In this document: positions 10,638-49,087 of the stretch, in pieces
How the letters are laid out: each line of letters begins with the position of its first letter
Numbering within the stretch: position 1 is the first letter of the stretch
DNA from: a virus
Length of the DNA stretch: 64,000 nt
Virus record (IMG/VR): IMGVR_UViG_3300045988_089178
Strand: one strand, 5' to 3'
Notes under the pieces: model-generated
The model's database searches: none
What the model saw: the letters and a program-made list of their open reading frames with translations, nothing else
What the model was told of the DNA's origin: nothing
Made by a program: the position numbers and the translations under genes

Positions 10638-10649
10638 TTATACACTTCC

Positions 10650-13466: not shown

Positions 13467-13693
13467 TTTAAACCCAGCTTTTCAGCCAATCTTCTTAACA
13501 TAGTTACAGTTTCTAATCTAGTGCAGAATTTATTTGGCATCATTCTTCCAGCACTGTCTCCAGCCATAATCCCATTCGCTTTAGCCCATTCAAGATTATC
13601 GGTGCCCCAAGTTTCTTTTTCATTAGCTTTATTAGTAAGCCAAGTATTCATAAGTTCAGCGAATTTCTCGTCAGTCATATCTTCATCATCCTC

Positions 13694-14341
13694 CTAGATA
13701 TTTGACATTAAATTATAAACATCTGTTCTTGCGGTTTCCATGCTTTTCCCAAATTTTGGAAACCAATGGTTTACATCTGCATGATTAGATCCTAATCCTA
13801 GCTTGTGACTATCAGCATGACATAAAATAGTCGGAACGGTGATACCATTTAAAGTAGTGGTTCCCAATGGATTTATGTTATACATTTTACATAAATAAGC
13901 AGTAATTTGACAAGCCTCTTCATAAATTTTGTTAAAATAATTTGCATCATTTAATCCATCTTCGCAAATTTCAAACTGAATCCATCCATTATTACAAGAA
14001 CCTTTAGACCCAGAACCGCATCCCCAAGGACGATAATTCCATGGCATTGTCTATACTGTTGTTACTGTTCCATCAGCCAATTTACCAATCCAACAGTTTA
14101 ATCCAGCTTGAACAGATATATGATTCCAGTCATTCTTGCTAGTATTTTTTCCTAATTTATTTATTAAACTGGTGTAGTTAGGATCATTATCGCTTGGCTA
14201 TACATATCTTTTTAAATTAGGATTATTTGCACCAGTACTATGCCATAAGATTCCTTTAACTTGCATGGTGCGTGTTTGTTTATAGCAAGTGCTATTTGTC
14301 ATCATACATTGAAGTGGTTTATTGCTATCGCTATATTTCAT
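13694..14341 (-). CDS. N-acetylmuramoyl-L-alanine amidase (amidase_2/PGRP-like) with in-frame TAG (14051-14053 and one upstream)
   Basis: RBS GGAGGTAATAAAATG; C-terminal region ...TILCHADSHKLG..NHADVNHWFP. Confidence 0.55.
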
Positions 14342-14872
14342 TTTATTACCTCCTTCAATTACATTTGAAATGTTAGCAAATTTATTATAATACTATTGAC
14401 CATAATTAGCTCTCTTTTGTTGCATAGAAAAACTCTAGTCTGAAGGTCTTTCAAACTAGAGTAATACTGCGGTAGAGGCTTCTGTGACAGAAGTGGCAGA
14501 AATCAAAATTTTAACTAAACTAGAAAAACTTGTAATTAACTCCTAATATAAAAAATCTAATTGAGTATTTAAATCTCCAATGGATTTACCTCGACTTTGA
14601 CAGAACTAAAGCAAATTTTGTTTTCTGCTCCAAAATGTCCATTGAGCCAATCCATATCCCGCCCCATCTTTTACAAAGTTTTTATACCTTCCATCATCAA
14701 CTGCGGAGGTATATCCTGCGTCGGTCATTTTTAATTTTTTTTCATAGGTGTTCTATAAGTTAATAGAATTAAGACCACTTTCGGCATAAAGATTACCCAT
14801 TAAACCGGCAATTCCGCAATCACTAAAACCTTTGCCTTTAAAGTATTTCCAAATAATTTGAGCATTAGTCAT
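14342..14872 (-). CDS. phage tail-lysozyme-like domain ORF; in frame with the downstream amidase; 6 TAG in the distal third
   Basis: MTNAQIIWKYFKGKGFSDCGIAGLMGNLYAESGLN...GYGLAQWT (Phage_lysozyme2-like pattern); no TAA/TGA before the amidase ATG. Confidence 0.4.
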
Positions 14873-14874
14873 TT

Positions 14875-15729
14875 TTATTTTTTTGTAATGAAAGAGCTAT
14901 ATCCAGCAGATTTTAATTTATCTTTTAGTCTTTCTGCATTTAATTTCACAGAGAAAGCACCTAATTGAACTTTATAAAAAATTCCTACTTTCTTGACATA
15001 CCCGCTAAATCCTTTCTCTTCCAATTCCTTTAACATATTCTCTGCATTGGTTTTAGATAGAAATGCTCCTACTTGAACTCTGTAAAGAACTACCTCTTGT
15101 TCTTTCTTAAAATATACACACATTACATTATCAACTGGTCTTGCATAAATTTGAGAAGTTTTTCTTTTCCCATCTATTAGTAATCTAGTAGATCCGCCTC
15201 CATCTAAATTAATAGCATATTCTACTTTCAATTCAAGAAAAATTTGCTATAGGGCAGCATAAACAAGACCTGGAGAATCTACGGTTACAATATAATAATT
15301 ATTTTTATTCCATCCAATACAAGTCCTGCGGGCTTTATAATCTAATTCTTTTCCATCTGTTATAACTACTTTTTTGCTATCTACAATTAATGCAGGATAA
15401 GCTGCGATAAAATCTCTAGCGGTTTCATAATCTTTTAATGTTGTATATATAAGTGTTTTATTGCCGCTAATTGCAACTCCATGGCGAAAATCAGACTAAA
15501 TAACAGTTCCTTCGTCTTTATAACTAAAGCAAGTGTTGCCATTATTCATGGCAAAGAAACCTCCATTAGTAATAATATCTGGTTTAGTAGCCTGTCTTTT
15601 ATAATAAGCATCTGGAGTTTCCGTCGGTTGATTGCATAAGGCAAAGTCAATTTTTTCAATGTCTGTGAAGGGAATTGTTACAATTTGAACATAAGAATAG
15701 AGACTATGTTTTTTGATACTATATCCCAT
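14875..15729 (-). CDS. DUF2233 phosphodiester-glycosidase-like protein with two C-terminal SPOR repeats; 2 in-frame TAG
   Basis: NLDGGGS motif; two repeats YRVQVGAF..KL.E.GF (SPOR). Confidence 0.5.
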
Positions 15730-15782
15730 ACTTTATCTCCTTTCAATAATAAAACCCAATCTCTAAAGAGATTGGGTTTAAA

Positions 15783-17039
15783 TCAAATATATTCAGCTAT
15801 TTGCGCGATTCTAGATCTATAAATATTACGGAGTTCTACTTCACCGTATATATCTTGTCCTCTATAAACTTTAGAAACTCGTTTCATTCCATTGTTTATG
15901 CCAGCAAAATGAATATCATCAACTTGAGTTTTTTCATCGCCGTCAATGATACAAATGCAATCCTCTCCAATTCTTTGAAGAGCCAACTTAATAAGTGTAC
16001 GATCTAAATTCTGAGCTTCAGAAATGTATATACCTGCTCTTGAACCATTGGTATCATATCCTCTAATATCCGACATTGGTAGTAAAATTAATTTTTCTTC
16101 GCTCATAAGATGTTCTACTCCCGTTCTACCGCCGAATTTAGATATTAGGAGATTGCCGATTTGAGAGTCTAATAGTTTTTCATCTCTTGTTCCAGGCAGA
16201 AATCCTAATCTTGCACTATTGGCTGTGGCAACGGTATTGCAAAATACAATAATATGATCAAGTTCGCCTTTTTCTAGCTTAGACATTAAATAGGCTAAGC
16301 TAATAAATGTTTTACCAGATCCCGCAGGCCCTTTAATCAAGGTAACTTTATTATTAGATAAGCTATCAAAAAGTAATTTTTGGTAAATATCATTTTGATA
16401 TGGCTTTACTTTTCCAAACCAATTTGAATTAAAGTCATTATAATTTAAATATCTATGGTCGTTTCCAGTCCATACTCTCAAATCTACCACTTTATCATCC
16501 ATATCTCTTATAATGAGATATTCTCCAACATGAAGATTAAAATGATTCAGTTCTGGTTTTTGATAAAACTCTGTAAGATTCTCATCACTAGCAGAAATTT
16601 CTTTATATCCACTATAATTATCAGTTTCTTCTGGAATACTTTCTATCATGTCAGACCCGAAGAATAGATTTGCAATATGCTTTAGGCTTAAATCATTTGT
16701 TACAAAGATGACTTCATCCACTCTTTTATTATTATTATACCAAATTGCATCAGACAGTATCCTTGTATCATCCGTTACGTCAAGACACATTTCTTTAATA
16801 TAGTCTTCAAAATCTGTTTGATGGATTACTACTTCATACATATCAGGGTGCGTTTCAAATAAATGTAGCAATAATCTAGCTGAATATTTTATATCTGAAT
16901 CTTTATTGTTAGCGGTTTTAATTCTTTCCAATTCCTGAAAAGTAATTGATGATACAATAAATTTTTCATCATTATTGAATAAGCCTTCTCCGCATATCAA
17001 TAGTGAACAAGTATCATAGAACCGAATATCTTTATTCAT
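15783..17039 (-). CDS. phoH: PhoH-like ATPase with N-terminal PIN domain
   Basis: PIN-like N-terminus; Walker A LIKGPAGSGKTF. Confidence 0.7.
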   Translation of the reverse strand: MNKDIRFYDTCSLLICGEGLFNNDEKFIVSSITFQELERIKTANNKDSDIKYSARLLLHLFETHPDMYEVVIHQTDFEDYIKEMCLDVTDDTRILSDAIWYNNNKRVDEVIFVTNDLSLKHIANLFFGSDMIESIPEETDNYSGYKEISASDENLTEFYQKPELNHFNLHVGEYLIIRDMDDKVVDLRVWTGNDHRYLNYNDFNSNWFGKVKPYQNDIYQKLLFDSLSNNKVTLIKGPAGSGKTFISLAYLMSKLEKGELDHIIVFCNTVATANSARLGFLPGTRDEKLLDSQIGNLLISKFGGRTGVEHLMSEEKLILLPMSDIRGYDTNGSRAGIYISEAQNLDRTLIKLALQRIGEDCICIIDGDEKTQVDDIHFAGINNGMKRVSKVYRGQDIYGEVELRNIYRSRIAQIAEYI

Positions 17040-17307
17040 AATTTTCCTCTTCCTCTTCTGATGTAGTAGTAGTAAATCCTATAACTTTTACACTCTTATT
17101 TATAGAGTTATTTAATTTATCTATTTTAGCATTACACTCTACTATTTTTATACTTAATCTCGCTTTTAAGAGTTCTACAAAGACAGAAATAAGCTCTTTC
17201 AAGTCCAAAATGATTGGAATACCCAACGATCCAATAAGAATACCTATAAGTAAATATAACAAAATGTACCACCTTCTTCTTTATATATAACAAAAAAAGA
17301 AGGAGAT

Positions 17308-17760
17308 TTAATTATTATTGCCCTGACGAAATTTTCTAACTATCGAGAGCGCCTTAGTTTGATTTTTAATGTAAGTTTTTAAGTTAGTTTCTTCTGTTTT
17401 TAATGCTTTTTCAAGTGCGGAAATTCGAGCTGAGCAGCGTCCAATTGCATAATAAAAGTTTCCAGTAGGGTCAACTTCCGCAGGACTTAATCGCTCATAT
17501 TTTGTTGCCTCTTGATAATAGTCATATCTATATTGTAATTCTTTGCGAGTTTTTTTCATTTCATATTGCATAGCATTTATTCTTGCTTTTGATAAAGCGA
17601 TAGTTTTACCTACCTTTTCAGAAAAAAAATCTTTATCGCTTTCCGCTAACTTGGCTCGTCCGCTAAAGATTTTCCCATTATAATTAATTCCAACAATACA
17701 TATGCCAGATTTTTCATTAACTAGCTATGTAATTGTTGGAGCTTTATATATAGCACTAAT
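17308..17760 (-). CDS. hypothetical protein with in-frame TAG near the N-terminus
   Basis: Extending ORF 17308..17571 upstream gives MSVISAIYKAPTIT[TAG]LVNEK... Confidence 0.3.
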
Positions 17761-17844
17761 AACACTCATTATTGTTTTCTCCTAATCTTTTAAATCTTTA
17801 TATTAAAATTATATCATTTATTTATAGAAAAATCCAATTTTAAG

Positions 17845-17945
17845 GATTTTGAAAGAAAAATTTGGTGAGCCCGCGCGAACGGAAACTCGGAGCAGAACGA
17901 GGCTAGTGGCAAAAGAAAACCCTCCAGGTTAAAAACCTGGAGGGT
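17845..17945 (-). repeat. copy 1 of a conserved ~55-bp GC-rich element placed after a terminator hairpin
   Basis: ttgaaagaaaaatttggtgagcccgcgcgaacggaaactcggagcagaacgagg, then hairpin ccctccagg..cctggaggg. Confidence 0.6.
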
Positions 17946-18369
17946 TAAAATTAAGGGGTAATCAGAATAGAAGAATCTGTTCCTGTCATAGTAGAAGGCA
18001 TCTGGCCATTCCACTGTTCATACTTAATCTTTTCAATCAACTCGGGAGTAAGAGAAGCGGCAATTTTGGAGTTGGCTTCTGCTTCCGCCTGAGCAGCAAT
18101 CTCAAGAGCATCAGCCTCAGCCTGTCGGCACCTTCTCCAAACAAGTAATTGCGGCAATCAGACCAAAAATCAAAACCAAGGCAACAACAATGCCACCAAT
18201 AATTCCGCTTTTCTTCATTATTTACTTTCCTTTCTTTCCTCAAGACCCAAACGCTTTCGGGTTCTATAATAGATTTTAATAAAGAATTTTCCAATCTTCC
18301 TAAATGTGAAATTTAGCAAGAACCATGCTGCAACAAGAGCAAGTACAACTAAAATCCAGAAAATAGGAT

Positions 18370-18933
18370 TCATAGCATCTCAATACACTCCTTTACCTTC
18401 AAGTTTATATCTTCAATGACCTTATCCAAGGATACCGGATAACAGTCATGAGAATCAACTCCCACATGATACATATAAGGTCTATCTTCAAAGAAATTAG
18501 TTCGCTGATGGGTGTGGCCATATAGATTAAGGGTCATCTGCTTAAGACTTTCTTTCTCAAGATTTCCAGTCAAAGTGGGGAAATGAGACATATAGAAGTG
18601 ATATTTCCTGTACTTAAGAGCAATAGCCCAAGCAGTTTCTACCACATTAGGAAGCTCGGCGTACATTTTCTTACGGCTATCCGTACAGTGGTTTCCAAAA
18701 GCAATGTGGAGTTTTCCATTCATAGAGGAAATAAACTCCTTGTTTCTCTCAAGACTATCTGCTCCACCGAGACAGAGATCTCCAAGAACATATACATCAT
18801 CTTCTGGAGTGACAATAGAGTTATGCCTCTCAACAAGAGCAATATTCATCTCTTCAACGGAGTTGAATCCACGAGGCTTATAGACAAACTCACGGTCATG
18901 TGAGAAGTGCCAATCCGAGGTTACGAAAATCAT
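18370..18933 (-). CDS. calcineurin-like metallophosphoesterase
   Basis: DWHFSHD...GDLCLGG...GNHC motifs; overlaps Pnk stop/start. Confidence 0.6.
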   Translation of the reverse strand: MIFVTSDWHFSHDREFVYKPRGFNSVEEMNIALVERHNSIVTPEDDVYVLGDLCLGGADSLERNKEFISSMNGKLHIAFGNHCTDSRKKMYAELPNVVETAWAIALKYRKYHFYMSHFPTLTGNLEKESLKQMTLNLYGHTHQRTNFFEDRPYMYHVGVDSHDCYPVSLDKVIEDINLKVKECIEML

Positions 18934-19463
18934 TTATCTCCCTCCTCCATGTTATGATGATTGATTTTTACATCCTTAAAGCCATACTTGTAGAGTTTAA
19001 ATTCTGCGGGAGTGGGAGGTCTAAAACCTCTAGCCATCTTTCTAATCGCGGAATCGGGTACTTTGGAAAATCCCTTTCTCAAGTTATTGCGGGCTATACA
19101 AGTATCAATCCCGCAATCACAAACTTCAAAACTAAGTCCAGTCTTCCCGTCCGGCCGCAACCTTCCTAATAACTTGGCTCTTGATCCTTGAGAGATATGA
19201 GTAGCATCAACAAAGATGTAGTCAATCCCAATTTCAAGGCACTCGTTAATTTGTCGAACGAACTCTTCAAATACTTCATTTTCTCGCGAGAAATAATCCT
19301 TATCTCCAATGAAACTTTCTCTTATCACATCGCGAGAAATAATAGCAGTATGAAAGCCATCCATTTCAAGAAGTTCGGCTTCTTTATTAGCCCAAGTTGA
19401 CTTCCCACTACCAGGTATACCAACCATGACTTTTACTTCGATAGTCATACTGCTTTCCTCCAT
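18930..19463 (-). CDS. pnk: polynucleotide 5'-kinase (T4 Pnk kinase-domain-like)
   Basis: [21 protein letters not shown] vs T4 Pnk [31 protein letters not shown] vs INRDDYRQSI. Confidence 0.7.
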   Translation of the reverse strand: [177 protein letters not shown]

Positions 19464-19526
19464 TCCTTAACTTTCTATATATATTATATTATATTTTTAT
19501 AATAATTTCAAAAGATTCTATGCGTC

Positions 19527-20393
19527 TCAAAATTCGACTGGTTGAATGAGGTCTTCGATATAAAGTCTACCTTCTTCCTTAAAAATAGGAATATTGAGAT
19601 CGACGAACCAATAATGTTTAAAATGGATTGAACCATCCTCTCTTTCGGTCTCTTCGCAGTCTTTTATGCAACAAGAACCTCTTTGTAAATAGACGGGCAA
19701 TTCATTCCAATCTATTCCTTTTTGAGAAATAAGCATTTCTAAAATTTCGCTACTACATTTACCTTGAAGTTCACTATGAGAAAAATTCGCTTGTCCAACC
19801 ATTTGAATAGAATTTCTAATAGCATCTAATTGGCGCCAATAAATTAGATTTGTTACTTCTTCTTTCGGAATATTGAAAACACGAGCATCAAACATAGCCC
19901 CTCTTGCGTTTGCTATCCGTAAAGTTCTCATATATTCTTGATGCTCAAGTTGAATTTCTACGCTCTGAGGAGTTAAAGAATTTTTCCAACCAATATCATA
20001 TCTTTCAATAGCTGAACGAAACACCTTATTAAAAATCATTGTTGCCATGGACGCTGCTACAGAACACATTTTTTGAACTTCATAATCAAACCATGCGTCG
20101 CTATTTAATTTTTTATAGTCAACAAGAATTAGAGTTATTTCATCGCTTTGAGTATATCCAAGAACACATCCTTGGATATTTTTACATAAATATTTCATTG
20201 TTTCTTGCATAGCCGAAGTCAATACCGCATCAAATGGTTTTCTAAAACCTTTAGTAAAGGTATGAAATGCTTTTCCATCAATTCTAATTGCTACAGGTGT
20301 TCTACGCATAAGTCGAGTTTTTGGAATTTGTTCATAGAACTCTTTCATGCGAGCGCCTAGCTGGTCATTCATATTATTCATCCTCCTTATCAA
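19527..20393 (-). CDS. Thg1-like protein (tRNA 3'-5' nucleotidyltransferase family)
   Basis: VAIRIDGKAFHTFT, LGYTQSDEITLIL and LIYWRQLDAIRNSIQ match the Thg1 motifs (RLDGRNFHRF / AYGQSDEYS / LSWRQADCHINN). Confidence 0.75.
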   Translation of the reverse strand: MIRRMNNMNDQLGARMKEFYEQIPKTRLMRRTPVAIRIDGKAFHTFTKGFRKPFDAVLTSAMQETMKYLCKNIQGCVLGYTQSDEITLILVDYKKLNSDAWFDYEVQKMCSVAASMATMIFNKVFRSAIERYDIGWKNSLTPQSVEIQLEHQEYMRTLRIANARGAMFDARVFNIPKEEVTNLIYWRQLDAIRNSIQMVGQANFSHSELQGKCSSEILEMLISQKGIDWNELPVYLQRGSCCIKDCEETEREDGSIHFKHYWFVDLNIPIFKEEGRLYIEDLIQPVEF

Positions 20394-21105
20394 CAGTAAA
20401 GATGTGTTCGTCGAAAGTATCCAAGTTTAGAAGAACAGTTTTTCCAGACATATAACTGCAACAGTCAATATCAACTTTATGATTATCACAATACCATAAA
20501 GCTCCACCATTATATGAGTAAGAGAACTGTCTATCTGGTGGTAGAAAATTATTCGCATTATCTAATCTTAGAATTAAGTATTCTGAAATTGGAGTATGGC
20601 CATGAACGCAAATTCCTTCACCTTCGGTAGTATCATAGATATGCTCTCTATCCCATAGCAAATCCTCGTTTGCTGGGAATGGTTCTTTTGCAGGAGTAAA
20701 ACCCGCATGACAAAGCATAATGGTTATTCCATTTTTATTCTTATATTCAAGATATAGGGGCAATTTTCTTAGATAGTGATACCATCCAGACTTAGCTCCA
20801 TCATTAATCCATCCATTAAAAGTAGAAGCTCCTCCATTCCAACAGAGAAGATCAAAATGACCTCCTCCATATGTTTCATATTTAATATAATCTTTCATAG
20901 CTTTAACAAGCATATCTTCGTGATTACCTTTAATATAGATAAAACGCGGATCCGACGCGACCGCTTTAATAGTTTCCCAAGACCGCGGACCTCGATCGCC
21001 GCAATCTCCTAGACAATAAACTTTATCTTCTGGCTTTAGAAAGTCACTAATTTTTTGATATAGCTCATACATACCATGAAGATCGCTAACTGCGTATACG
21101 CTCAT
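20374..21105 (-). CDS. PPP-family Ser/Thr phosphatase (lambda-phosphatase-like)
   Basis: GDCGDRGP and GNHE motifs. Confidence 0.6.
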   Translation of the reverse strand: MSVYAVSDLHGMYELYQKISDFLKPEDKVYCLGDCGDRGPRSWETIKAVASDPRFIYIKGNHEDMLVKAMKDYIKYETYGGGHFDLLCWNGGASTFNGWINDGAKSGWYHYLRKLPLYLEYKNKNGITIMLCHAGFTPAKEPFPANEDLLWDREHIYDTTEGEGICVHGHTPISEYLILRLDNANNFLPPDRQFSYSYNGGALWYCDNHKVDIDCCSYMSGKTVLLNLDTFDEHIFTVDKEDE

Positions 21106-21185
21106 AAATAAAACTCCCTTTCTTATATTATATAAATATTATATCATAAATATTATAAAAAATAAAGAGAGCTGTAAAGCTCTCT

Positions 21186-42334: not shown

Positions 42335-42351
42335 TATTTGTTCCTCCTTCC

Positions 42352-43413
42352 TTACTTTCCAATTACAACCTTATGATCCTCAGTTGGATCAATGGAAGCA
42401 GGTTGATAAACGAATACATCATAAGGAACCGCGGTAAATCCATTTGCTCCTTCTACTTGCACTGGTCCTTGCTTTACATAGCTAGAAGTTACATCTGCGT
42501 TCAAACTAGAAGTAATATTAGCTGCGGTAACTTTAAGCCCAGAAGATTGAGGAACTGCGATAATAATTCTCTTAGTATCACTTTTTGCTTTAATGCTATT
42601 AATAGTCATTGCGGCTGCCGCTTTATTGCTTGCTGTTAAAGAACGAATAATCGCGCTAGTTAAAGGATCTGTAGAATTATTAACTCCATAAAAAATCTAG
42701 CGATATCCAGTAATAGCTCCTGTGCTATTAGACTTAGATCCAGCTTTAATCTGTCCTTCTACATATTCAGAACCAAGATTTGTAACAGGAATAGCTCCAT
42801 TCCCATAATTAGCTGTTGCTGTAATCTTTAAATTAGTAGCATCTTCAACTTGAATTTCAGAGAAAGTTCCAGTAGCTTCTGTTTTTGTTTCTTCATCAAA
42901 TTGGACGCTCCAACCGGTTGCTGTAATTCCAGTGTCTGGGCCGTATTGATAAGATCCTTTATTTAAAGTTGCAGTATAAGTTGGAGTTACATTAGTGCCT
43001 GCTTCATACGCTTTCATTTGACTAGAGGAAATACTAACAGAAGGTTGCGTAATAGTAGGATTTTTTTCTTCCGCAAAAGCATCTAGCAGTAATTGATCTA
43101 ATGTTTTTCCAGTCGCGGGAATATTAACAGATCCATCTCCTCCAGGAGCATATTTACCAAAAGTATAGGTAAATGTAAAATCATCATCAAATTTTACAAT
43201 AGATGAATCAACTTCTACAATATCTTTTCCACCAGAATATTCTAACTAACCCCAAGTGCTTGTTCCATCACCATATTTTACTTTTCCTTTATTCTCGCCA
43301 TCGGTGGTAAGACAAGCCTCTCCAACGAGAGGAATAAAGGAGTCCTTAACTGAAGTCCAATTTTCCTCGGTATCATGTCTAAGTTGGATTCTAGTTTTTA
43401 ATTCATTGGCCAT
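42352..43413 (-). CDS. tail-fibre-like protein, in-frame TAG at 42697-42699 and 43249-43251
   Basis: N-terminal MANELKTRIQLRHDTEENW; RBS upstream. Confidence 0.45.
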
Positions 43414-43435
43414 CTTTAAAATGCCTCCTTATTTT

Positions 43436-44265
43436 AGTCTACTGCTGTCCCACAGTTTAATATTAAAGTAAAACCTTCAACATCCACTATTTTATCAAGT
43501 CCTACAGAATTAATTTCTCCGGTTCCATCTGAAAGTATTTTTATCTAATTATTCTAACTACTCCCCTTAATTAAACCAAGATTTTCTTCTGTTCCCGCCG
43601 GAATAGTAACTTTATTATCTTCAACCGGCAAATCTTTATTTCCGATAGAGATAGTTTCTATTACTTTATCCTAAGATATTGGAGTATACCACTCTAATGT
43701 GCCATCTTCTCTTTTTCTAATAGATTGCCCTGTTGATGCTTCTGCAAATCCTTTTAATGAAATCTGTCCAATTCCATCAATAACAATAGATTGATTGTCT
43801 ACATCAACATTTACCAAACTACTATTTATATATTTTAACTATTTCCACTCGGTGGCTCCATCTCCAATTTTTAACTTTCCAGTATCTATTTCAAATCCCG
43901 GCTCACCTTGACGAAGAATTGGATTTAATTCGGTCCACTTCTCTGATGTTCCTCGCTTGAACTAAAATATTGTTTTATAAACAACTTCAGCCAAAGTCAC
44001 TCCCTCCTTTAGCCAATTAGTCCGCCATCATAAATAATAGTTGTATCTTCTGGAGGAAGAGGCTAATCTCCGCCTCCACCAGAGTGCTACAACACCCATT
44101 CATGATCAGAATTGAAAATATATCTATTTCCATTTTCAATTACGTAGGCTGAACTGCCCGGCTTGCGGTTTTTAGGGAGATTAGCAACATCACTTTGGTA
44201 ATCACATAAAAAATGAACTGTACCATAAAAAACTTTATTATCTATATTTTTACCAATAGTAATCA
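43436..44265 (-). CDS. tail-fibre-like protein, very TAG-dense (at least 10 in about 276 codons)
   Basis: MITIGKNIDNKVFYGTVHF...; C-terminal LILNCGTAVD resembles the C-terminus of gene 39799..41136 (IIFNCGSSSTVI). Confidence 0.35.
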
Positions 44266-44359
44266 TACTTATTCTCCTTTCTTAAAGAAGTAGAGAAGAA
44301 AATTATCTCTCTTTATACTATATAACAATAATGACAAGAGATTTCACATAAATTGTCCA

Positions 44360-44465
44360 AGCCCCATTTTTGAAAGAAAAATTTGGTGGGCCTGCGCGAA
44401 CGGAAACTCGGAGCAGAACGAGGACAACAGAAAAGAGGGGCCAGCTTATGGCTAGCCCCTCTAGG
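44360..44465 (-). repeat. copy 2 of the ~55-bp GC-rich element, after terminator hairpin aggggccagc..gctagcccct
   Basis: tgaaagaaaaatttggtgggcctgcgcgaacggaaactcggagcagaacgagg; 2 mismatches vs copy 1. Confidence 0.6.
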
Positions 44466-44661
44466 GTAATCAAGGTTTTGCAGAACCTCAATCATACATA
44501 TTGCATTTATAAATGAAATATATATAAACACCGCTGCAACGATGGATGGTTGCGGGTATGAGAATCGAACTCATTCCTCAAGCCTTATGAGGGCTGCGAC
44601 TTAACCACTTGTCCTACCCGCAATATATAAAGCAGTTTTAAGACTTGCTTAGGTCTTTATA

Positions 44662-45783
44662 TTAAAGGTCAATATACTTATTGACTCCATAAATTGAAAC
44701 CTTAGTAAAGGTTGCATTTTCAACCCTTACTTTTTCGTTAAATTCCTTTCTAGCCTTTGCACTCTCTTCCTCAGTGGGGTAATCATAATCGAAAGCATCA
44801 AAATCACAATAGAAATTAGCATCTACGCCCATAAGTACGAGAGTACCATCCATAGATTTAATCTTTCCTGGATCAAAAGAAAGGTAGAAATCATTCTTAT
44901 CTTTTTTAAACCGAAGACACTGAACCTCTTTGGCATAAAGATCGAGATTATAATTATATGCAGTCATAACCCAACCATTAGTCAAACGAACATTAACATC
45001 AAAGAGAACACCTCTCTCATAGTTAATATTCAAATCCATTAAGGTTTCCTCCAAAGGATAACCTTGTTTCAAATCAAAAGCAATAGCCCTTAGGCTATCA
45101 TAAGTAATGTCCGCGACCTGCGACAACTTAACAACCTTTTCAATTTCCTCTTCCATACCGCTTCCAAGCGCATCCATCATATATGCCCGCACTTCATCCG
45201 CTGTAGGACAGCCAATCTCAAAATGATAGTGAAAACGACCAGGGCGATTGATAAGAAATTCGTTCAATTTTCTTGTATCGTTACAAGTGATAACAAAAAG
45301 TTTCTTTCCATTATCAATCCCATCAAATAGACTTAAAAGTCCTACCTGCGGATCGCCGTCATCATTCCTGGCAAAAGTCTTTTCAAACTCGTCAAAGATA
45401 ATAACAACTTCTTGTTCAATGGAACTGAGGAAATTACTAATTCCGGGAATAGGAGAATCGACTACAATCACTGGCATTTCTCGCTTGATCGCGGCATCCG
45501 CAATCATTCTTGCAAAAAGAGATTTGCCAATACCTTTCTTACCAGAAAGAATTATACCAAAGTTTCGCTCGGACTTATCGAAAGAGTTGAAAACTTTCTC
45601 TACCTTATGACTATGCGAGCCATAAACTTTTTCTTCGCCAATCTGCAAATTATTATGAACAGAAAGCCAAATTCCCATTTGGGGATGGAAACCGATTGTA
45701 TAGGTTCCGATTGGTAACTCTTTATAAGTTTTTACATCGTCACCATATACCTAAAAACGATTTCCTGTATGGACAATATTCAT
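44662..45783 (-). CDS. AAA+ ATPase, one in-frame TAG near the N-terminus
   Basis: Walker A SGKKGIGKSLFA; Walker B VVIIFDEFE. Confidence 0.5.
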
Positions 45784-45812
45784 CTATTTACTTCCTTTCC
45801 TATTGTTAGATG

Positions 45813-45900
45813 TGGTGGGCCAGGAGGGAATCGCACCCACTCGAGCTCGAAAGCACCGGTTTTACAGACCGGGGTGTCTACTTTAGCACTTTACTGACCC
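45813..45900 (-). tRNA. tRNA-Tyr (GUA)
   Basis: Loop CUGUAAA; long variable arm; acceptor GGGUCAG/CUGGCCC. Confidence 0.6.
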
Positions 45901-45917
45901 ATATATAAAAGAATTGT

Positions 45918-46006
45918 TTGGTCCCGGAGACGGGACTCGAACCCGTACGAGATTGCTCTCAGGGGATTTTAAGTCCCCTGTGTCTGCCAATTCCACCACT
46001 CCGGGA
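45918..46006 (-). tRNA. tRNA-Leu (UAA)
   Basis: Loop CUUAAAA; long variable arm; D-arm GUGGUGGAAUUGG. Confidence 0.65.
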
Positions 46007-46088
46007 TATTGCACATTTTTATGCTGAGTTGTGCTTCTCACCTTTCTCTTCTTCTTCCCCGGAGGATGAAAGTATCTCCGGTGTATTC

Positions 46089-46207
46089 GGCGGGGAGTGC
46101 AGGACTCGAACCTGCGACATCGTGCACCCAAAGCAAGTTAAAGATTGCTGTTACGGTCTTTAACAAGACCAAACTATAACGCGCTCTACCAACTGAGCTA
46201 ACTCCCC
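46089..46207 (-). tRNA. aberrant 119-nt tRNA-like element with a ~45-nt insertion between D-arm and T-arm
   Basis: Canonical acceptor GGGGAGU/ACUCCCC, D-arm GCUCAGUUGGUAGAGC, T-arm GCAGGUUCGAGUCCUGC; insert holds hairpins GGUCUU-GUUA-AAGACC and AGCAA-UCUUUAAC-UUGCU. Confidence 0.35.
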
Positions 46208-46366
46208 ATATAAACGATTTTGGATAAGGTTAATCGAGAACCTCGTCAGTGTGCTACTACGCCAAAGGCGAGCCCTGCAGGTTTACTCGCCACTCTTTAA
46301 ATGGTGGACGCTTTCAATCCTACATCCTGACAATAGAAGTCTTATTTACGATTTCTGTACGTATTG

Positions 46367-46441
46367 CTTCTATTACTGGCACCGCTTCTTCGTGTTGAAC
46401 GAAAACTTCTTGGTTCAGAGCCAAGCGTGCAGACCGCTACA
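46367..46441 (-). tRNA. tRNA-Gln (CUG)
   Basis: Loop CUCUGAA, G73, CCA encoded. Confidence 0.65.
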
Positions 46442-46444
46442 CTA

Positions 46445-46518
46445 AAGCGGTATATGGCAGCGGATAGAGGGGTCGAACCTCTAACAAGGGAGTCAAAGTC
46501 CCGCGTGTTACCATTACA
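46445..46518 (-). tRNA. tRNA-Gln (UUG)
   Basis: Loop CUUUGAC, G73, CCA encoded; 3 nt from the CUG isoacceptor. Confidence 0.7.
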
Positions 46519-46596
46519 CCAATCCGCTATAAATCAAGACGCATTAAAGAAAAGACTGTTTATCAGACAGTTGCGTAAACCATTCCGCCAAAATCG

Positions 46597-46660
46597 CTAA
46601 GCGCGATCCACAGGATTCGAACCTGCATCTTCTATTAAGAAGAATTTGCTGTATGCGTCT
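46597..46660 (-). other. tRNA-like fragment (T-arm + hairpin, no D-arm) after an ACAGCAAAU leader
   Basis: GCAGGUUCGAAUCCUGU T-arm; hairpin UCUUC-UUAAUA-GAAGA; no matching 5' acceptor strand. Confidence 0.3.
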
Positions 46661-46888
46661 TTATTTTACTTATATTTTAATTACACTCGCTGCTATATCG
46701 CAGTTGAACAAATCGTCATAAATCTTCTCTAAAGAAGCATCTTCATCAATGGTATATCCATTCAAAAGAGAATGTTTCTTTAGAGCTTCTTTTTCTGATT
46801 CAGCAGTAATCTTCTCTAACTTAATTTCATTTTCAAAGAAACTAAGAACTCCAACAACAAAATTCATAATTTTCTCCTAGACTTTAAG

Positions 46889-46964
46889 TGGTACCCGGTG
46901 ACGGGCTCGAACCGCCGACCTCCGCGGTGTAAACGCGATGCTCTCCCAGCTGAGCTAACCGGGC
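46889..46964 (-). tRNA. tRNA-Val (UAC)
   Basis: Loop UUUACAC. Confidence 0.7.
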
Positions 46965-47167
46965 ATTTAACTCAGAAAGATATTTTTAAATTCGTTCTCA
47001 AGCATAAAGAAAACTTCGCTCGCGCAACCACCTTTGCCGACTTGAACATAAGCAATCATAACATCTCCAGAGTCAGCATCGAAACCACGACAAATAGTCT
47101 TAACAAGACCATAAGGATTAGCTCGATAAAAGCAACCCATAGCAACAAAGTTATTCTTCATATTTAA

Positions 47168-47225
47168 GACTTCCTTTCTCAACTTTCTATAAATATTATA
47201 TCATTTATTTTTAATATTTTCAAAA
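47168..47225 (-). promoter_or_regulatory. conserved phage promoter/5'UTR module (copy)
   Basis: ctcaactttctataaatattatatcatttatttttaatattttcaaaag. Confidence 0.55.
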
Positions 47226-47430
47226 GTTTCTAAAGACTAGACTCAAAAGGGCTTGCCCCATATGCTCAACATTTTCTTGGCTTCCCTTCAAAAAGAAAAT
47301 GCTTCTTAGCTTTCTAAATAAGATTTATTTAGTAAAATCTTTTTATACAAGTATATTTGCATATATTTGCTGTATTGAGTCTATATATATAGGAAAGGAG
47401 TGATACATATTCTCGCTCTTAGGGAGCGAG

Positions 47431-47507
47431 TGGTCCGAGTGGTGAGACTCAAACTCACGGCCTCGTGATCCCAAATCACGCGTTCTAATCAACTGAACTA
47501 CACCCGG
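47431..47507 (-). tRNA. tRNA-Pro (UGG)
   Basis: Loop UUUGGGA. Confidence 0.7.
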
Positions 47508-47783
47508 ATATTAACTTAGGGTTTTTCGCACTTCCGCAGATTTCCATGCCTGGTCCTTATCGTTTCCTCTAGTGCTATACGAGGCACCGACCCTAAACCC
47601 TTCTGCTCTATGCCGGTTGTGTACTGATACCGGAAAACATCTTGGGGACTTTATTTTTTTACCTTCGTTGCTCCAATCCTCGAAGGGTATCTCGAAGTAT
47701 AGCTCTTCTATTTTACTGGCTCGGATTTAAGGCCCTACGATTTATTCTTACTGCCTTTCAGACTTGTATGTAAGATACCAATA

Positions 47784-47871
47784 TGGCGCAGAGAGTAGGA
47801 TTTGAACCCACGGATCTTTCGACCTCCTGCTTTCTAGGCAGGCGCCATAAACCAGACTCGGCCATCTCTGC
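47784..47871 (-). tRNA. Ser-type class II tRNA with unusual anticodon loop CUAGAAA (anticodon AGA)
   Basis: Ser-like D-arm GCCGAGUCUGGUUUAUGGCG, long variable arm, stem CCUGC/GCAGG. Confidence 0.5.
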
Positions 47872-47874
47872 ATA

Positions 47875-47951
47875 TGGTACGCCAGAGAAGATTTGAACTC
47901 CCACAAACCAGGGTCCGTAGCCCTGTGCACTCTCCGTTATGCTACTGGCGC
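47875..47951 (-). tRNA. tRNA-Arg (ACG)
   Basis: Loop CUACGGA. Confidence 0.65.
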
Positions 47952-48025
47952 ATATACTAGACCCATCATCTTTTTCTCCAGTTCAAACAACAGGTAAAGA
48001 GTTCTTTGCAGTACGGGTCTAAATT

Positions 48026-48478
48026 TTAATTACGAGTACGTAACCAATAATTTTTCATCTTGTAATTTGAATCATCCGTCACTTCAATAGCATCATCAAT
48101 AGGAAACTGATAGTCGCGGGCCTGCTCCTCTGATTCAAATTCAATTTCTGCATAGATAAAAGCTCCATCATCTACTACAGAAACCGTGAGCGGATACCCG
48201 CCGCAATTAAAAACGGAATAATTTTTCTTAATTGGAGGTTTACCGACAAAATCTTTTAGCTGATTGTAAAAATCTTCCGAAATTTCTGTTTCAATTTCTT
48301 CTCTTGTTAAAGAGCCTTCACCTTTTACGGTAATTCTAAAAGGCTCTTTACTTGCCGGGTTATGTCGTAATCGCACTTCTGGATTCGTCGAAACATAAAA
48401 TTGCTCTACCTGAGAATTTTTTACTAATCGAAATTCGGTAGGAACTCTTTGAAGAATCCACTTTCTTTCAATTTCCAT
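48026..48478 (-). CDS. CYTH-domain protein (triphosphatase-like)
   Basis: N-terminal MEIERKWIL (ExExK). Confidence 0.5.
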   Translation of the reverse strand: MEIERKWILQRVPTEFRLVKNSQVEQFYVSTNPEVRLRHNPASKEPFRITVKGEGSLTREEIETEISEDFYNQLKDFVGKPPIKKNYSVFNCGGYPLTVSVVDDGAFIYAEIEFESEEQARDYQFPIDDAIEVTDDSNYKMKNYWLRTRN

Positions 48479-48761
48479 ACGAATCCTCCATCAAATAATC
48501 TTCATCTTCATAAAGAGTGTCTTTTATAATAACACACTCATACTTATTATCTCTCTCCGCAGAAGCATCAAGAATGATTAAAGGCTCTCCTCCTACAGTA
48601 GTTTTGGAAAAAACTCTCGCAGCGATGTTCATCGCCTCCCAAGGAGAATTTGCTACTAAAAGAACATTCCGCTTAAACACTTTACTTTTTACTGTCTTTA
48701 ATTTAACTGAGACATTAAAAAAGTATTCCATAATAAATCCTTTCCTACTTTTATTATTAAC

Positions 48762-49087
48762 TGGTGGAGCCGGCGGGAGTCGAACCCGCGTCCGAAACAC
48801 CTATATAATTAAAGTCTTTTCACACGATAGTTAAACTTTATCCATTAAGTGGGATAGGCTTTAACAAACCACACTCCATTAAGCGTACTGGTTTACCTCC
48901 ACCACTTTGTTTAAGAGAGTAAACAAAGAAACTCAAGGGTTAAGCGGCGAGCTTAGCTCAAGCCGCAAGATAATTCTCGAAATAATCGTTGTCAGTTAAT
49001 TTTTGTTGCCCCTTAAGGGGGTGTGCATACCCGTGAACTTTAATCCTTCAATGCCCCGTCGAAACCTTTACGGCCCCATGTGACCCC
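48762..49087 (-). ncRNA. ssrA: tmRNA (ssrA)
   Basis: 5' GGGGCCGUAAAGGUUUCGACGGGG; 3' GGACGCGGGUUCGACUCCCGCCGGCUCCACCA; internal tag ORF ...DNDYFENYLAA ending in TGA. Confidence 0.7.

What the first reader, a model, noticed from the sequence alone, without database searches (positions are those of the whole stretch)
17845..44465. Two direct copies of a ~55-bp GC-rich element, each directly downstream of a terminator hairpin and 26.5 kb apart
TGAAAGAAAAATTTGGTGrGCCyGCGCGAACGGAAACTCGGAGCAGAACGAGG occurs at 17850-17905 and 44375-44430, with 2 mismatches. The hairpins that follow differ in sequence but keep the same architecture. The elements sit at module boundaries, between the RNA-repair block and early genes and between the tail-fibre block and the AAA+/tRNA block. 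The two mismatches are not compensatory for the obvious RNA hairpins, which favours a DNA-level site such as a regulator binding site, recombination site or replication/packaging signal. Copy 1 abuts a decayed SPFH-like gene remnant (17951-18219).
Basis: seen in the sequence. Interest (0 to 1): 0.5.

Follow-up and report, generated by a model that had tools for sequence, protein, structure and literature searches.

The report
Conserved DNA module heading two late-gene operons
A 56-bp GC-rich, non-coding DNA module sits between a terminator and a promoter in front of the lysis and tail-fibre operons of an uncultured gut phage; it is most likely a protein-binding control site that was copied from one promoter to the other, and its function is untested.

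Summary
The repeat is real: window 17847-17902 and 44368-44423, 54/56 identical, 26,521 bp apart, none expected by chance. All genes here are on the minus strand. In that direction each copy lies 9-14 nt after a strong intrinsic terminator and 9-20 nt before a promoter with a weak or absent -35 and an extended -10. Those promoters head the only two multi-gene blocks of TAG-recoded late-function genes in the window.

It is not a terminator family. The hairpins belong to unrelated upstream genes, while the element is conserved with the downstream operon. A 13-nt core (CTCCGAGTTTCCG) is invariant in relatives whose adjacent protein is only 41% identical.

There is no RNA structure on either strand, no covariation, no Rfam match and no conserved ORF. 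Genomes of about 145 kb carry one or two copies, never many. The second copy exists only in the window's clade, and the copies show patchy gene conversion. Both reciprocal recombinant junctions occur in metagenome contigs, but these may be assembly chimeras.

Best reading (about 0.45): a portable promoter-distal regulatory DNA module, consisting of a protein-binding GC block plus an UP-like A/T tract. Interest is modest.

The parts
17847..17902 (-). Copy 1 of the 56-nt element. Minus-strand reading: CCTCGTTCTGCTCCGAGTTTCCGTTCGCGCGGGCTCACCAAATTTTTCTTTCAAAA. It spans about -101 to -46 relative to the inferred transcription start.
44368..44423 (-). Copy 2 of the element, 54/56 identical to copy 1. 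It spans about -111 to -56 relative to the inferred start.
17880..17892 (-). Block A of copy 1, CTCCGAGTTTCCG. It is invariant in all but one of the family members recovered (L006 has TTTTCG), including the relative with 41% identity in the adjacent protein.
44401..44413 (-). Block A of copy 2.
17847..17863 (-). A/T tract of copy 1, AAATTTTTCTTTCAAAA, UP-element-like, about -62 to -46.
   Evidence: sequence; the consensus comparison is from memory; conserved as AA(A/T)TTTTT in all relatives
44368..44384 (-). A/T tract of copy 2, about -72 to -56.
17918..17946 (-). Intrinsic terminator of the upstream SPFH-remnant gene (13 pairs, T-run TTTTCTTTT). It is adjacent to the element but not part of it.
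   Evidence: different hairpins in relatives
44434..44462 (-). Intrinsic terminator after tRNA-Met (12 pairs, 8 GC). It is adjacent to the element but not part of it.
17808..17837 (-). Promoter served by copy 1: TTGGAT (17832-17837), 18-nt spacer, extended -10 TGATATAAT (17808-17816).
   Evidence: read from sequence. Conserved in relatives as TTGATT-N17-TGCTATCAT/TGCTATTAT. The same promoter is present without the element in L148.
44319..44347 (-). Promoter served by copy 2: GTGAAA (44342-44347), 17-nt spacer, long -10 TGTTATATA (44319-44327). There is no canonical -35.
   Evidence: sequence; resembles the Herelleviridae late motif TGTTATATTA/TGYTATAWTA (PMC7698491, PMC12282133)
13463..17769 (-). 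Operon downstream of copy 1: a 153-aa protein (1 TAG), a small TM protein, PIN-PhoH, a protein of unknown function with a C-terminal endolysin-like region (2 TAG), and a lysozyme/amidase/SLH endolysin (9 TAG).
39799..44266 (-). Operon downstream of copy 2: five TAG-recoded genes. One carries an Mtd_N domain and another matches a PHROG tail assembly protein family. The other three gave no family match or were not searched.
17951..18219 (-). SPFH/Band_7 gene remnant upstream of copy 1. It has an internal ~620-bp deletion at 18119-18124 relative to close relatives.

Best explanation
The element is a discrete, portable cis-acting DNA module that belongs to the promoter downstream of it, not to the terminator upstream.

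Anatomy, read on the minus strand:
- a short TCGT patch;
- a 4-nt free spacer;
- the invariant 13-mer CTCCGAGTTTCCG;
- a 7-nt free spacer of fixed length;
- a second conserved patch, (G/T)GC(C/T)CA(N)CAA;
- an A/T tract, AA(A/T)TTTTT(C).

The module lies about -46 to -101 (copy 1) or -56 to -111 (copy 2) from promoters that have a weak or absent -35 and an extended or long -10.

Inferred mechanism: a sequence-specific DNA-binding protein, phage- or host-encoded and not identified, binds the GC block. Together with the UP-like A/T tract it sets the strength or timing of these promoters, and may also stop read-through from the upstream early genes. That would co-regulate the lysis/PhoH operon and, in the window's clade only, the tail-fibre operon.

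The ancestral site is the one upstream of the 153-aa/PhoH/lysis operon. The tail-fibre copy arose by copying 56 bp into a second intergenic region and has since been kept similar by gene conversion.

Shown: the anatomy, the conservation, the copy number, the absence of RNA structure, and the duplication and conversion history. Inferred: protein binding, and the direction of the regulatory effect.
For: 1. Position. In both copies the order on the transcribed strand is gene stop, terminator, 9-14 nt, element, 9-20 nt, promoter, operon.

2. The element goes with the downstream unit.
- In relatives the upstream gene and its hairpin differ: a flotillin-like gene, an HflC-like gene, a DUF2726-like endonuclease, a GIY-YIG gene, tRNA-Met.
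- The element, the promoter and the first gene stay the same.

3. Strong selective constraint.
- Block A is identical in all lineages but one (L006 has TTTTCG), including L147, where the adjacent protein is 41% identical.
- Element identity is 68-86% against 63-78% for the first 300 nt of the adjacent CDS.
- The conserved patches are separated by spacers of fixed length but free sequence, which is the pattern of a protein-contact site.

4. It is not RNA.
- RNAalifold gives 0 pairs on the sense strand and 3 on the antisense strand.
- Single-sequence z-scores are -0.1 to -0.5.
- The only hairpin in window copy 1 is broken in 12 to 14 of 15 variants at two of its seven pairs, with no compensatory change.
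- There is no Rfam match.

5. It is a discrete add-on. L148 keeps the homologous promoter (TAAAATTGGCT...TGGTATAAT) directly after its terminator, without the element. The homology resumes exactly where the 56-nt repeat ends in the window.

6. Both served promoters fail a canonical sigma-70 scan. They carry extended or long -10 boxes resembling the -35-less late promoters reported for Herelleviridae. Such promoters commonly depend on upstream elements.

7. The distance from block A to the -10 is 78-80 bp at six copy-1 sites and 89 bp at copy-2 sites, one helical turn more.

8. The two served operons are the only multi-gene TAG-recoded blocks of late-function genes in the window.
Against: - No binding protein is identified. 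The gene always next to the ancestral site encodes a 153-aa protein with a confident model (pLDDT 90) but no significant fold match and no obvious DNA-binding domain.
- The GC block has no clear dyad or direct-repeat symmetry.
- L148 shows the promoter can exist without the element.
- Other promoters with similar -10 boxes in the window lack it.
- Promoter positions and start sites are read from sequence only.
- The helical-phase argument rests on two classes of site.
- Sense-strand C>G (C/G 1.2-2.1) could instead point to an RNA-level signal.
Confidence: 0.45

Rival explanations
1. The element is itself a promoter for a phage-encoded sigma factor. Block A would act as a -35-like element and block B plus the A/T tract as a -10-like element. 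It would give a long-leader late transcript that runs through the sigma-A-like promoter.
For: Two conserved blocks are separated by a fixed-length spacer. Relatives of this phage (Herelleviridae) use phage sigma factors for late genes. The served operons carry late functions.
Against: - The blocks match none of the motifs compared by eye from memory: sigma-A, ECF-type, sigma-54 and SPO1 middle/late.
- The late motif described for Herelleviridae is a long -10 without a -35, and that motif lies downstream of the element, not in it.
- Only one or two copies occur per genome, although a phage needs many late promoters.
- The clade-II tail-fibre site lacks the blocks.
Confidence: 0.1
2. The element acts as RNA in terminator read-through transcripts. 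It would be an unstructured, C-rich segment that loads Rho as a back-up terminator, or that binds an RNA-binding protein or RNase. This would insulate the late operons from upstream early transcription.
For: The sense strand is C-rich and G-poor in every variant (C/G 1.2-2.1), against a genome sense strand that is G-rich. It is unstructured. It lies directly after a terminator and ahead of genes such as an endolysin, whose early expression would be expected to be harmful.
Against: Rho-loading sites are degenerate and longer. An invariant 13-mer with fixed spacers is not expected of one. The strong terminators should leave little read-through RNA. The A/T tract and the conserved distance to the -10 box fit a DNA role better.
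Confidence: 0.1
3. The element is mainly a recombination patch with no regulatory role of its own: a short homology at module boundaries, analogous to PeSL cassettes of T4-like phages, or a selfish mini-element. Exchange between copies would shuffle, delete or circularise the 26.5-kb block between them.
For: - Copies are 56/56 identical in one genome and mosaic in others, with substitutions shared by genome at some sites and by locus at others.
- Contig L128 is the deletion junction (window 5762-17902 joined to 44368-45771).
- Contig L135 is the reciprocal junction (window 19495-17847 joined to 44423-35339).
- The element shows presence/absence polymorphism.
- Endonuclease genes are inserted next to it.
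Against: - Most lineages have a single copy, which cannot recombine with itself, yet block A is conserved there.
- There are no terminal inverted repeats or target duplications.
- The hybrid contigs are short. A 56-bp exact repeat is about the size of the largest k-mer (55) that I recall as the SPAdes default for short reads, and other contigs break exactly at the repeat (L054/L095, L101).
- A deletion lacking the tail-fibre block would not be viable alone.
Confidence: 0.1
4. The element is a replication origin, a packaging or terminal-repeat boundary signal, or a site-specific nick site.
For: It is a single-copy (ancestrally), strongly conserved non-coding element next to an A/T tract.
Against: There are no iterons, DnaA boxes or extended AT-rich unwinding region. 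The block between the copies holds RNA-repair genes, tRNAs and the tail-fibre block, which I would not expect inside a terminal repeat. The second copy is clade-specific, and contig ends are arbitrary. No positive evidence was found.
Confidence: 0.06
5. The element is a structured small RNA, riboswitch or ribozyme, or a tRNA-derived remnant.
For: It is a GC-rich island in a 33-37% GC genome, as the tRNA genes are. Copy 2 ends in GGCCCACCA, and 15 nt match the 3' end of a tRNA in locus L021.
Against: - There is no Rfam family at E<=10 other than chance hits on the terminator, and ARAGORN finds nothing there.
- There is no consensus structure and no covariation.
- The CCA-like end is not conserved (CAGCAA in most lineages).
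- A T-arm cannot be drawn.
Confidence: 0.02
6. It is a generic terminator-associated repeat family.
For: Each copy abuts a terminator hairpin.
Against: The other terminator-like sites scanned between 10 and 50 kb lack it. The hairpins next to it are unrelated in sequence. There are at most two copies per genome.
Confidence: 0.01

Closest known systems
PeSL (promoter-early stem-loop) regulatory cassettes of T4-type phages (Arbiol et al. 2010, PMC2839356; Comeau et al. 2014, PMC4122927)
   Same: Both are short conserved intergenic sequences that combine terminator and promoter functions at the boundaries of variable gene blocks. PeSLs are proposed to stop early transcription spilling into late genes, and they act as homology patches for indels and mini-circles. 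Here the element lies between a terminator and a promoter, next to a hot spot of gene replacement, and shows gene conversion and possible reciprocal recombinant junctions.
   Different: PeSL repeats consist of the sigma-70 promoter and the stem-loop themselves, and number about 50 per genome. Here the conserved 56 bp contains neither a promoter nor a hairpin, the hairpins differ between sites, and there are one or two copies per genome. The window does have a separate many-copy promoter/terminator repeat family (D1-D5) that resembles PeSLs more closely.
Upstream activator or operator sites of phage late or middle promoters (for example phi29 p4 sites upstream of promoter A3, PMC3100819 abstract; Mu Mor/C, P2 Ogr and TP901-1 Alt sites, recalled from memory)
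   Same: These are promoter-distal, protein-bound DNA upstream of promoters with a poor -35. They occur in few copies per genome and coordinate late functions.
   Different: No cognate protein is known here. There is no dyad symmetry. The sequence is unrelated. The site lies further upstream (-46 to -111) than most class I/II activator sites.
UP element of bacterial promoters (consensus AAAWWTWTTTTNNNAAA, -59 to -38; recalled from memory)
   Same: The A/T tract AAATTTTTCTTTCAAAA matches 13 of the 14 specified positions. In copy 1 it lies at about -62 to -46.
   Different: It is displaced by about one (copy 1) or two (copy 2) helical turns from the canonical position. It is only the proximal third of the conserved module, and the GC block has no counterpart in UP elements.
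Herelleviridae late promoters (TGTTATATTA in Kayvirus, PMC7698491; TGYTATAWTA in a P100-like Listeria phage, PMC12282133)
   Same: The promoter served by copy 2 has TGTTATATAG and no -35. Copy-1 promoters in relatives have TGCTATCATA or TGCTATTATA.
   Different: Those late promoters are described as lacking upstream elements. The element studied here is upstream of, not part of, that motif. Kinship of this phage to Herelleviridae rests on about 43% identity of one ATPase.

Membership tests
Intrinsic (Rho-independent) terminator family | A G+C-rich hairpin directly followed by a T-run lies within the repeated sequence | tested here: not met
   The 56 nt have no stable or conserved hairpin. The hairpins are outside the repeat and unrelated between copies and between relatives.
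Intrinsic (Rho-independent) terminator family | Many copies, one after most transcription units | tested here: not met
   There are two copies in 64 kb against 42 terminator-like sites scanned in 40 kb, and at most 2 per ~145-kb genome.
PeSL regulatory cassettes | The repeat unit contains a sigma-70-like early promoter and a stem-loop | tested here: not met
   The promoter and hairpin lie outside the conserved 56 bp and differ between the two sites.
PeSL regulatory cassettes | Tens of copies concentrated in hyperplastic regions | tested here: not met
   One or two copies per genome.
PeSL regulatory cassettes | Recombination between copies creates indels or mini-circles | tested here: inconclusive
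   Reciprocal hybrid junction contigs L128 and L135, plus homogenised copies. Assembly chimeras at a 56-bp repeat cannot be excluded without reads.
UP element | A/T-rich sequence matching AAAWWTWTTTTNNNAAA | tested here: met
   13/14 specified positions by direct comparison. The consensus is recalled from memory.
UP element | Located at -40 to -60, adjacent to the -35 hexamer, and bound by the RNA polymerase alpha C-terminal domain | tested here: inconclusive
   The inferred position is -62 to -46 (copy 1) and -72 to -56 (copy 2). Start sites are inferred, and binding is not testable with these tools.
Transcription-factor binding site (operator or upstream activating sequence) | Conserved contact patches separated by spacers of fixed length and free sequence, at a conserved distance from the promoter | tested here: met
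   The alignment of 15 variants shows invariant blocks with 4-nt and 7-nt variable spacers of constant length. The distance from block A to the -10 is 78-80 or 89 bp.
Transcription-factor binding site (operator or upstream activating sequence) | Specific binding by a protein, and an effect on transcription | not testable with these tools
   No candidate regulator was found. The adjacent 153-aa protein has no significant fold match.
Structured non-coding RNA (any Rfam family, sRNA or ribozyme) | A match to a curated covariance model, or a conserved structure with covariation | tested here: not met
   Rfam gathering and E<=10 scans were negative. alifold gives 0 and 3 pairs. There are 0 pairs with compensatory change.
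tRNA or tRNA-derived attachment site | A T-arm plus acceptor 3' strand plus CCA, detectable by tRNA models | tested here: not met
   ARAGORN and the Rfam tRNA model find nothing there. The CACCA end is not conserved (CAGCAA in most lineages).
Integrated mobile element flanked by att repeats | The segment between the repeats is variably present and carries an integrase or mobility genes | tested here: not met
   The two sites are 23-27 kb apart in the four relatives computed, in both clades (coordinates). The content sampled is tRNA genes, RNA-repair and NAD-salvage genes and the tail-fibre block. No integrase was found among the ORFs searched; the interval was not fully annotated.
Herelleviridae-type late promoter | A long -10 TGYTATAWTA without a -35 | tested here: not met
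   The element itself contains no such motif. It is found 30-40 nt downstream of the element: TGTTATATAG at copy 2, TGATATAATT at copy 1.

The most novel reading that the evidence does not exclude
The two copies may be substrates of frequent, perhaps programmed, recombination. This would excise the 26.5-kb block between them (tail-fibre genes, RNA-repair genes, several tRNAs) as a circle and leave a deleted genome. Both reciprocal junctions are present in independent human-gut assemblies. On this reading the same 56-bp cassette also wires the lysis and tail-fibre operons to one regulator in a TAG-recoded phage lineage.
Probability: 0.1. Interest if true: 0.6.

Novelty: new member of a known kind. 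Interest (0 to 1): 0.35.

Why it matters
If the reading is right, this family of large, uncultured human-gut phages uses a dedicated upstream DNA site to control its lysis operon. These phages have about 145-kb genomes, TAG-recoded late genes, about 30 tRNAs and a tmRNA, and are distantly Herelleviridae-like. One clade would then have brought its tail-fibre operon under the same control simply by copying 56 bp.

That gives a concrete, testable handle on late-gene timing in stop-codon-recoded phages, where timing is so far discussed mainly at the level of translation.

It is also a clean natural example of promoter rewiring by transfer of a cis-element.

There is a practical point as well. The 56-bp repeat breaks, or possibly mis-joins, metagenome assemblies of these phages.

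It does not overturn anything known, and the function remains untested.

Tried and rejected
1. Structured RNA. The checks were Rfam, single-sequence folds, RNAalifold on both strands and pair counting for the only hairpin in copy 1. All were negative. The good z-scores come from the terminators.

2. tRNA remnant. A 15-nt match to the 3' end of a tRNA in L021 looked promising. But no T-arm can be drawn, the CCA-like end is not conserved, and the tRNA finders are silent.

3. Small ORF. A 26-aa (copy 1) or 48-aa (copy 2) plus-strand reading frame starts at a TTG within the element. No Shine-Dalgarno sequence precedes it at usable spacing, the frames diverge after the repeat, and the spacers are not multiples of three.

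4. Known operator motifs were compared by eye from memory and none is conserved across variants: LexA/DinR, CodY, Spo0A, CcpA, SinR and sigma-54, plus ECF, sigma-B, sigma-H and the SPO1 middle and late promoters.

5. CRISPR solitary-repeat mimic. The GAAAC-like end crosses the most conserved block, and there is no repeat-like stem.

6. Homology of the clade-II tail-fibre GC block to the element. A profile built without those sequences does not find it. Only the A/T tract and the promoter-proximal part are significantly similar. I therefore do not count it as a copy.

7. The adjacent 153-aa protein as the regulator. The model is good but has no significant PDB match (best E = 0.13). The dsRBD-like hits are weak.

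8. Similar DNA in GenBank phages: none.

9. A host copy of the element. There is none in 185,579 species genomes, apart from a phage contig binned with a Eubacterium MAG and two presumed chance hits.

10. A third copy. Two further pattern scans found only chance matches in GC-rich coding DNA.

11. The alternating pyrimidine-purine (Z-DNA-like) spacer. It is explained by transitions alone and is not significant.

Full report
**1. The observation**

The repeat exists. The repeat finder reports a two-copy family at 17847-17902 and 44368-44423: 56 nt, 2 mismatches, spacing 26,521 bp. Its 30-nt core occurs exactly twice even with 3 mismatches allowed, against 0.00 expected. A profile search finds no third copy in the window.

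**2. Context**

- All ORFs of 90 aa or more that are plausible genes, and all 31 tRNAs plus a tmRNA, are on the minus strand. The element must therefore be read as CCTCGTTCTGCTCCGAGTTTCCGTTCGCGC(G/A)GGC(T/C)CACCAAATTTTTCTTTCAAAA.
- The phage carries a tRNA with anticodon CTA, and many genes become long ORFs only if TAG is read as sense.
- The closest cultured relatives, by one ATPase at about 43% identity, are Bacillus Herelleviridae. There is no nucleotide-level relative in GenBank phages.
- Relatives are 120-148-kb contigs. Those named by source are from human-gut metagenomes. One is binned with a Eubacterium MAG.

On the minus strand the order at both sites is: stop codon, strong intrinsic terminator, 9-14 nt, element, 9-20 nt, promoter, operon.

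- The terminators are at 17946-17918 and 44462-44434. Each has the most G-C pairs of any site in its 20-kb scan, and the T-runs are on this strand only.
- Copy 1 heads a block of five genes: a 153-aa protein, a small membrane protein, PIN-PhoH, a protein of unknown function with a C-terminal endolysin-like region, and a lysozyme/amidase/SLH endolysin. The last two have 2 and 9 in-frame TAGs.
- Copy 2 heads five TAG-containing genes. One carries an Mtd_N domain and another matches a tail assembly family.
- The other TAG-rich genes in the window are single genes. One is a GIY-YIG endonuclease-like gene, and one is similar by eye to an endonuclease-like ORF of a relative. Two more have a single TAG each and look, by eye only, like ThyX and a uracil-DNA glycosylase.
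- So the two multi-gene blocks of late-function genes embedded in this otherwise replication, RNA-repair and tRNA region each begin with the element.

**3. What belongs to what**

I fetched the orthologous loci through the flanking AAA+ ATPase and PhoH genes, by DNA patterns and through the 153-aa protein.

At the copy-1 site the element is present in lineages whose PhoH is about 70% identical. It is also present in L147, whose 153-aa homologue is 41% identical. That copy reads GCTAGCCTCGTGTGGCTCCGAGTTTCCGTACATATGCCCCAGCAAATTTTTC.

The gene immediately upstream varies: an SPFH remnant, an intact Band_7 gene, flotillin-like and HflC-like genes (read by eye from the translated sequence), a DUF2726-like endonuclease (sub-threshold Pfam match), or a GIY-YIG endonuclease. 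Each has its own, unrelated terminator hairpin. The hairpins are therefore not part of the element. The element travels with the downstream promoter and gene.

In L148 (homologue 45% identical) the terminator is followed directly by the homologous promoter, and the element is missing. The similarity to the window resumes exactly at the end of the 56-nt repeat. The element is thus a discrete add-on of about 56-65 bp.

**4. Anatomy and constraint**

An alignment of 15 distinct variants shows, in order:
- a TCGT patch;
- 4 free positions;
- the 13-mer CTCCGAGTTTCCG, identical in 14 of the 15 variants (L006 has TTTTCG);
- 7 free positions of constant length, where all differences among the CAGCAA-type variants are transitions;
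- a second patch, (G/T)GC(C/T)CA(N)CAA;
- AA(A/T)TTTTT.

Between distant lineages the element is 68-86% identical, against 63-78% for the first 300 nt of the adjacent gene. The terminator region gives 51-78%, a figure inflated by T-runs.

**5. Not RNA, not coding**

- RNAalifold predicts no pairs on the sense strand and three on the antisense strand.
- The folding energies of the 56-mers equal those of shuffles (z = -0.1 to -0.5).
- The one hairpin that window copy 1 can form is broken at two of its seven pairs in 12 and 14 of 15 variants, with no compensatory change.
- Rfam finds nothing except chance hits on the terminator.
- No ORF is conserved.

**6. Copy number and history**

Pattern scans of IMG/VR, of 241 million metagenome records and of 185,579 species genomes found the element only in this phage family, never more than twice per contig.

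The tail-fibre copy exists only in the window's clade (window, 084596, 093451, 075249 and their metagenome relatives). In the sister clade the tail-fibre operon is preceded by a different GC-rich block. A profile built without those sequences does not detect that block. Only the A/T tract and the promoter-proximal part are significantly similar to the copy-1 region of the same genomes (p<0.0005).

The two sites are 23-27 kb apart in the four relatives for which I computed both positions, spanning both clades (coordinates). Nothing is mobile between them.

Within the window's clade the copies are 56/56 identical in one genome (L137/L141) and 54/56 in the window. They differ at 2-4 positions in two other genomes and at about 6 in one mosaic genome. 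Some substitutions are shared by genome (GTCCTG, CCGAT in 075249) and others by locus (GGCTCA against GCCCA). That is the signature of patchy gene conversion after a 56-bp copy event.

**7. Recombinant junctions**

Two metagenome contigs carry hybrid flanks.
- L128 joins window 5762-17902 (99.6% identical) through the element to 44368-45771. This is the deletion product.
- L135 joins 19495-17847 through the element to 44423-35339. This is the reciprocal circle or duplication junction.

They come from different samples and are short (18.8 and 11.3 kb). Other contigs begin or end exactly at the repeat (L054/L095, L101). A 56-bp exact repeat is about the size of the largest k-mer (55) that I recall as the SPAdes default for short reads, so chimeric assembly is at least as likely as real recombination. 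I cannot decide without reads.

**8. The served promoters**

Neither promoter passes a canonical sigma-70 scan.
- Copy 1 is followed by TTGGAT-N18-TGATATAAT. Relatives have TTGATT-N17-TGCTATCAT or TGCTATTAT.
- Copy 2 is followed by GTGAAA-N17-TGTTATATA.

Published transcriptomes of Herelleviridae describe late promoters as a long -10 (TGTTATATTA, TGYTATAWTA) with no -35 (PMC7698491 and PMC12282133). The copy-2 promoter matches 8 of 10 positions.

This motif is not specific enough here to date the promoters. TGTTATATA also precedes the tmRNA, and TGATATAATA is the common -10 of the window's many repeated promoter cassettes.

The distance from block A to the -10 is 78-80 bp at six copy-1 sites and 89 bp at two copy-2 sites, one helical turn more. 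The A/T tract AAATTTTTCTTTCAAAA matches 13 of 14 specified positions of the UP-element consensus as I recall it, but it lies one to two turns further upstream than a canonical UP element.

**9. Mechanism**

The best-supported explanation is a promoter-distal cis-regulatory DNA module. A GC block would be contacted by a sequence-specific protein, and an A/T tract would act as a displaced UP-like element. The module would control the strength or timing of a promoter with a poor -35, and could also help to keep upstream early transcription out of the lysis and tail-fibre genes.

- Ancestrally it serves the 153-aa/PhoH/lysis operon.
- In one clade it was copied in front of the tail-fibre operon.
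- Shown: the anatomy, conservation, copy number, lack of RNA structure and history.
- Inferred: protein binding and the regulatory effect.

I looked for a regulator in the gene that always follows the ancestral site. Its model is confident (pLDDT 90.5; one small alpha-beta3-alpha domain and a long helical hairpin), but it has no significant structural relative.

The rivals are set out in the structured fields with their evidence and refutation tests. They are: an alternative sigma promoter, an unstructured RNA or Rho-loading signal, a pure recombination patch, an origin, packaging or nick site, a structured RNA, and a terminator family.

**10. Comparison with what is known**

The nearest described thing is the PeSL cassette of T4-type phages (PMC2839356, PMC4122927). 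PeSLs are conserved terminator/promoter intergenic units at the edges of variable genes. They insulate late genes and recombine to give indels and mini-circles.

The element shares the location, the proposed insulating logic and perhaps the recombination. It fails the defining features: it contains neither the promoter nor the stem-loop, and it has one or two copies rather than about 50.

It works like an upstream operator or activator site of phage late promoters, but membership of any such system cannot be tested without the protein.

**11. Verdict**

This is a real, selectively constrained, lineage-specific non-coding DNA element. It is neither a terminator family nor an RNA. It is most probably an upstream regulatory site that has been duplicated between two late-gene promoters.

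As a kind of thing it is ordinary. It is new only as a sequence family, and it comes with a neat evolutionary story and an open question about recombination. Interest 0.35.

Noticed in passing
window 38271-38346; TAG-containing ORFs e.g. 13463-14872, 39799-44266, 5317-6228, 25826-26698: There is a suppressor-type tRNA with anticodon CTA, and many genes are intact only if TAG is read as sense. A close homologue has Q at the TAG position of the 153-aa protein. Recoding is concentrated in lysis genes, the tail-fibre block and homing-endonuclease-like genes.
   Followed up: partly
window 37212-55732: A block of 31 tRNA genes plus a phage-encoded tmRNA (48762-49077, tag DNDYFENYLAA). One Rfam tRNA hit is 117 nt long (46091-46207), suggesting an intron. 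ARAGORN did not call it.
   Followed up: no
window 45805-45861, 50322-50406, 51857-51920, 52193-52259: GC-rich stretches inside the tRNA block are not called as tRNAs. Two of them (45805-45861, 52193-52259) look like tRNA 3' halves (T-arm-like sequence; 45805-45861 also has GGCCCACCA). They may be split, decayed or unusual tRNAs, or other small RNAs.
   Followed up: no
window 32594-35035 (minus strand): An 813-aa protein matches Major Vault Protein domains: MVP_shoulder E=6e-18 and Vault_3 above the Pfam cut-offs, with Vault repeat and Band_7 matches below them. It has no PHROG family. A vault-like protein in a phage is unusual.
   Followed up: no
window 17951-18219 and 18119-18124: The SPFH/Band_7 gene upstream of copy 1 is a remnant: an N-terminal TM segment and a C-terminal tail in different frames. 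Close relatives L135 and L137 have about 620 bp more at 18119-18124.
   Followed up: yes
L128 (OGPY01001342.1) and L135 (OGPC01001942.1): These metagenome contigs carry the two reciprocal hybrid junctions across the element: the deletion of, and the circle or duplication of, window 17903-44423. They are either real recombinants or assembly chimeras at a 56-bp repeat.
   Followed up: partly
L054/L095 (IMGVR 3300045988_068993), L101 (7000000646_000011): These contigs begin or end exactly at the first bases of the element, so the repeat breaks assemblies of this phage.
   Followed up: partly
window-wide, e.g. 21115-21169, 29942-29993, 47149-47226, 51463-51526, 56036-56099: A many-copy family (11-16 members per repeat finder family) of near-identical promoter cassettes of the form (TTGAAA)-N17-TGATATAATATWTATAGAAAG-SD. 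Some lie directly after terminators. It is this phage's counterpart of PeSL-type cassettes.
   Followed up: partly
window 6228-6300: The GIY-YIG-containing, TAG-rich gene 5317-6228 starts 4 nt after the T-run of a strong terminator. No promoter or Shine-Dalgarno sequence is visible, so it could only be expressed by read-through.
   Followed up: no
window 25826-26698; L055 2300-3100; L147 2066-2821: Endonuclease-like genes recur at variable positions. They include a Cys-rich-repeat type with a sub-threshold DUF2726 match, and a GIY-YIG type. In relatives they are inserted immediately upstream of the element, which makes that boundary a hot spot of gene insertion.
   Followed up: partly
window 17284-17292, 44319-44327, 49115-49123, 52510-52518: TGTTATATA occurs four times, always on the minus strand (1.3 expected). 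One copy is about 40 nt upstream of the tmRNA gene, and one lies inside a hairpin loop upstream of the small TM gene that precedes PhoH.
   Followed up: partly
window 17308-17769 (minus strand): The 153-aa protein always encoded next to the ancestral element has no Pfam or PHROG family. It gives a confident AlphaFold model (alpha-beta3-alpha domain plus a long helical hairpin) with no significant PDB match. The resemblance to dsRBD topology is only weak.
   Followed up: yes
L148 (JGI 3300035520 contig): This related lineage keeps the same gene order and a homologous promoter but lacks the element altogether.
   Followed up: yes
L008-L020, about 230-290 nt downstream of the AAA+ gene: In the sister clade the tail-fibre operon is preceded by a different, well-conserved GC-rich block (TGGACCGCGCTCGGTGCAAACGCAAAGTGGCTTTAGAATTTTTC) of unknown function.
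   Followed up: partly
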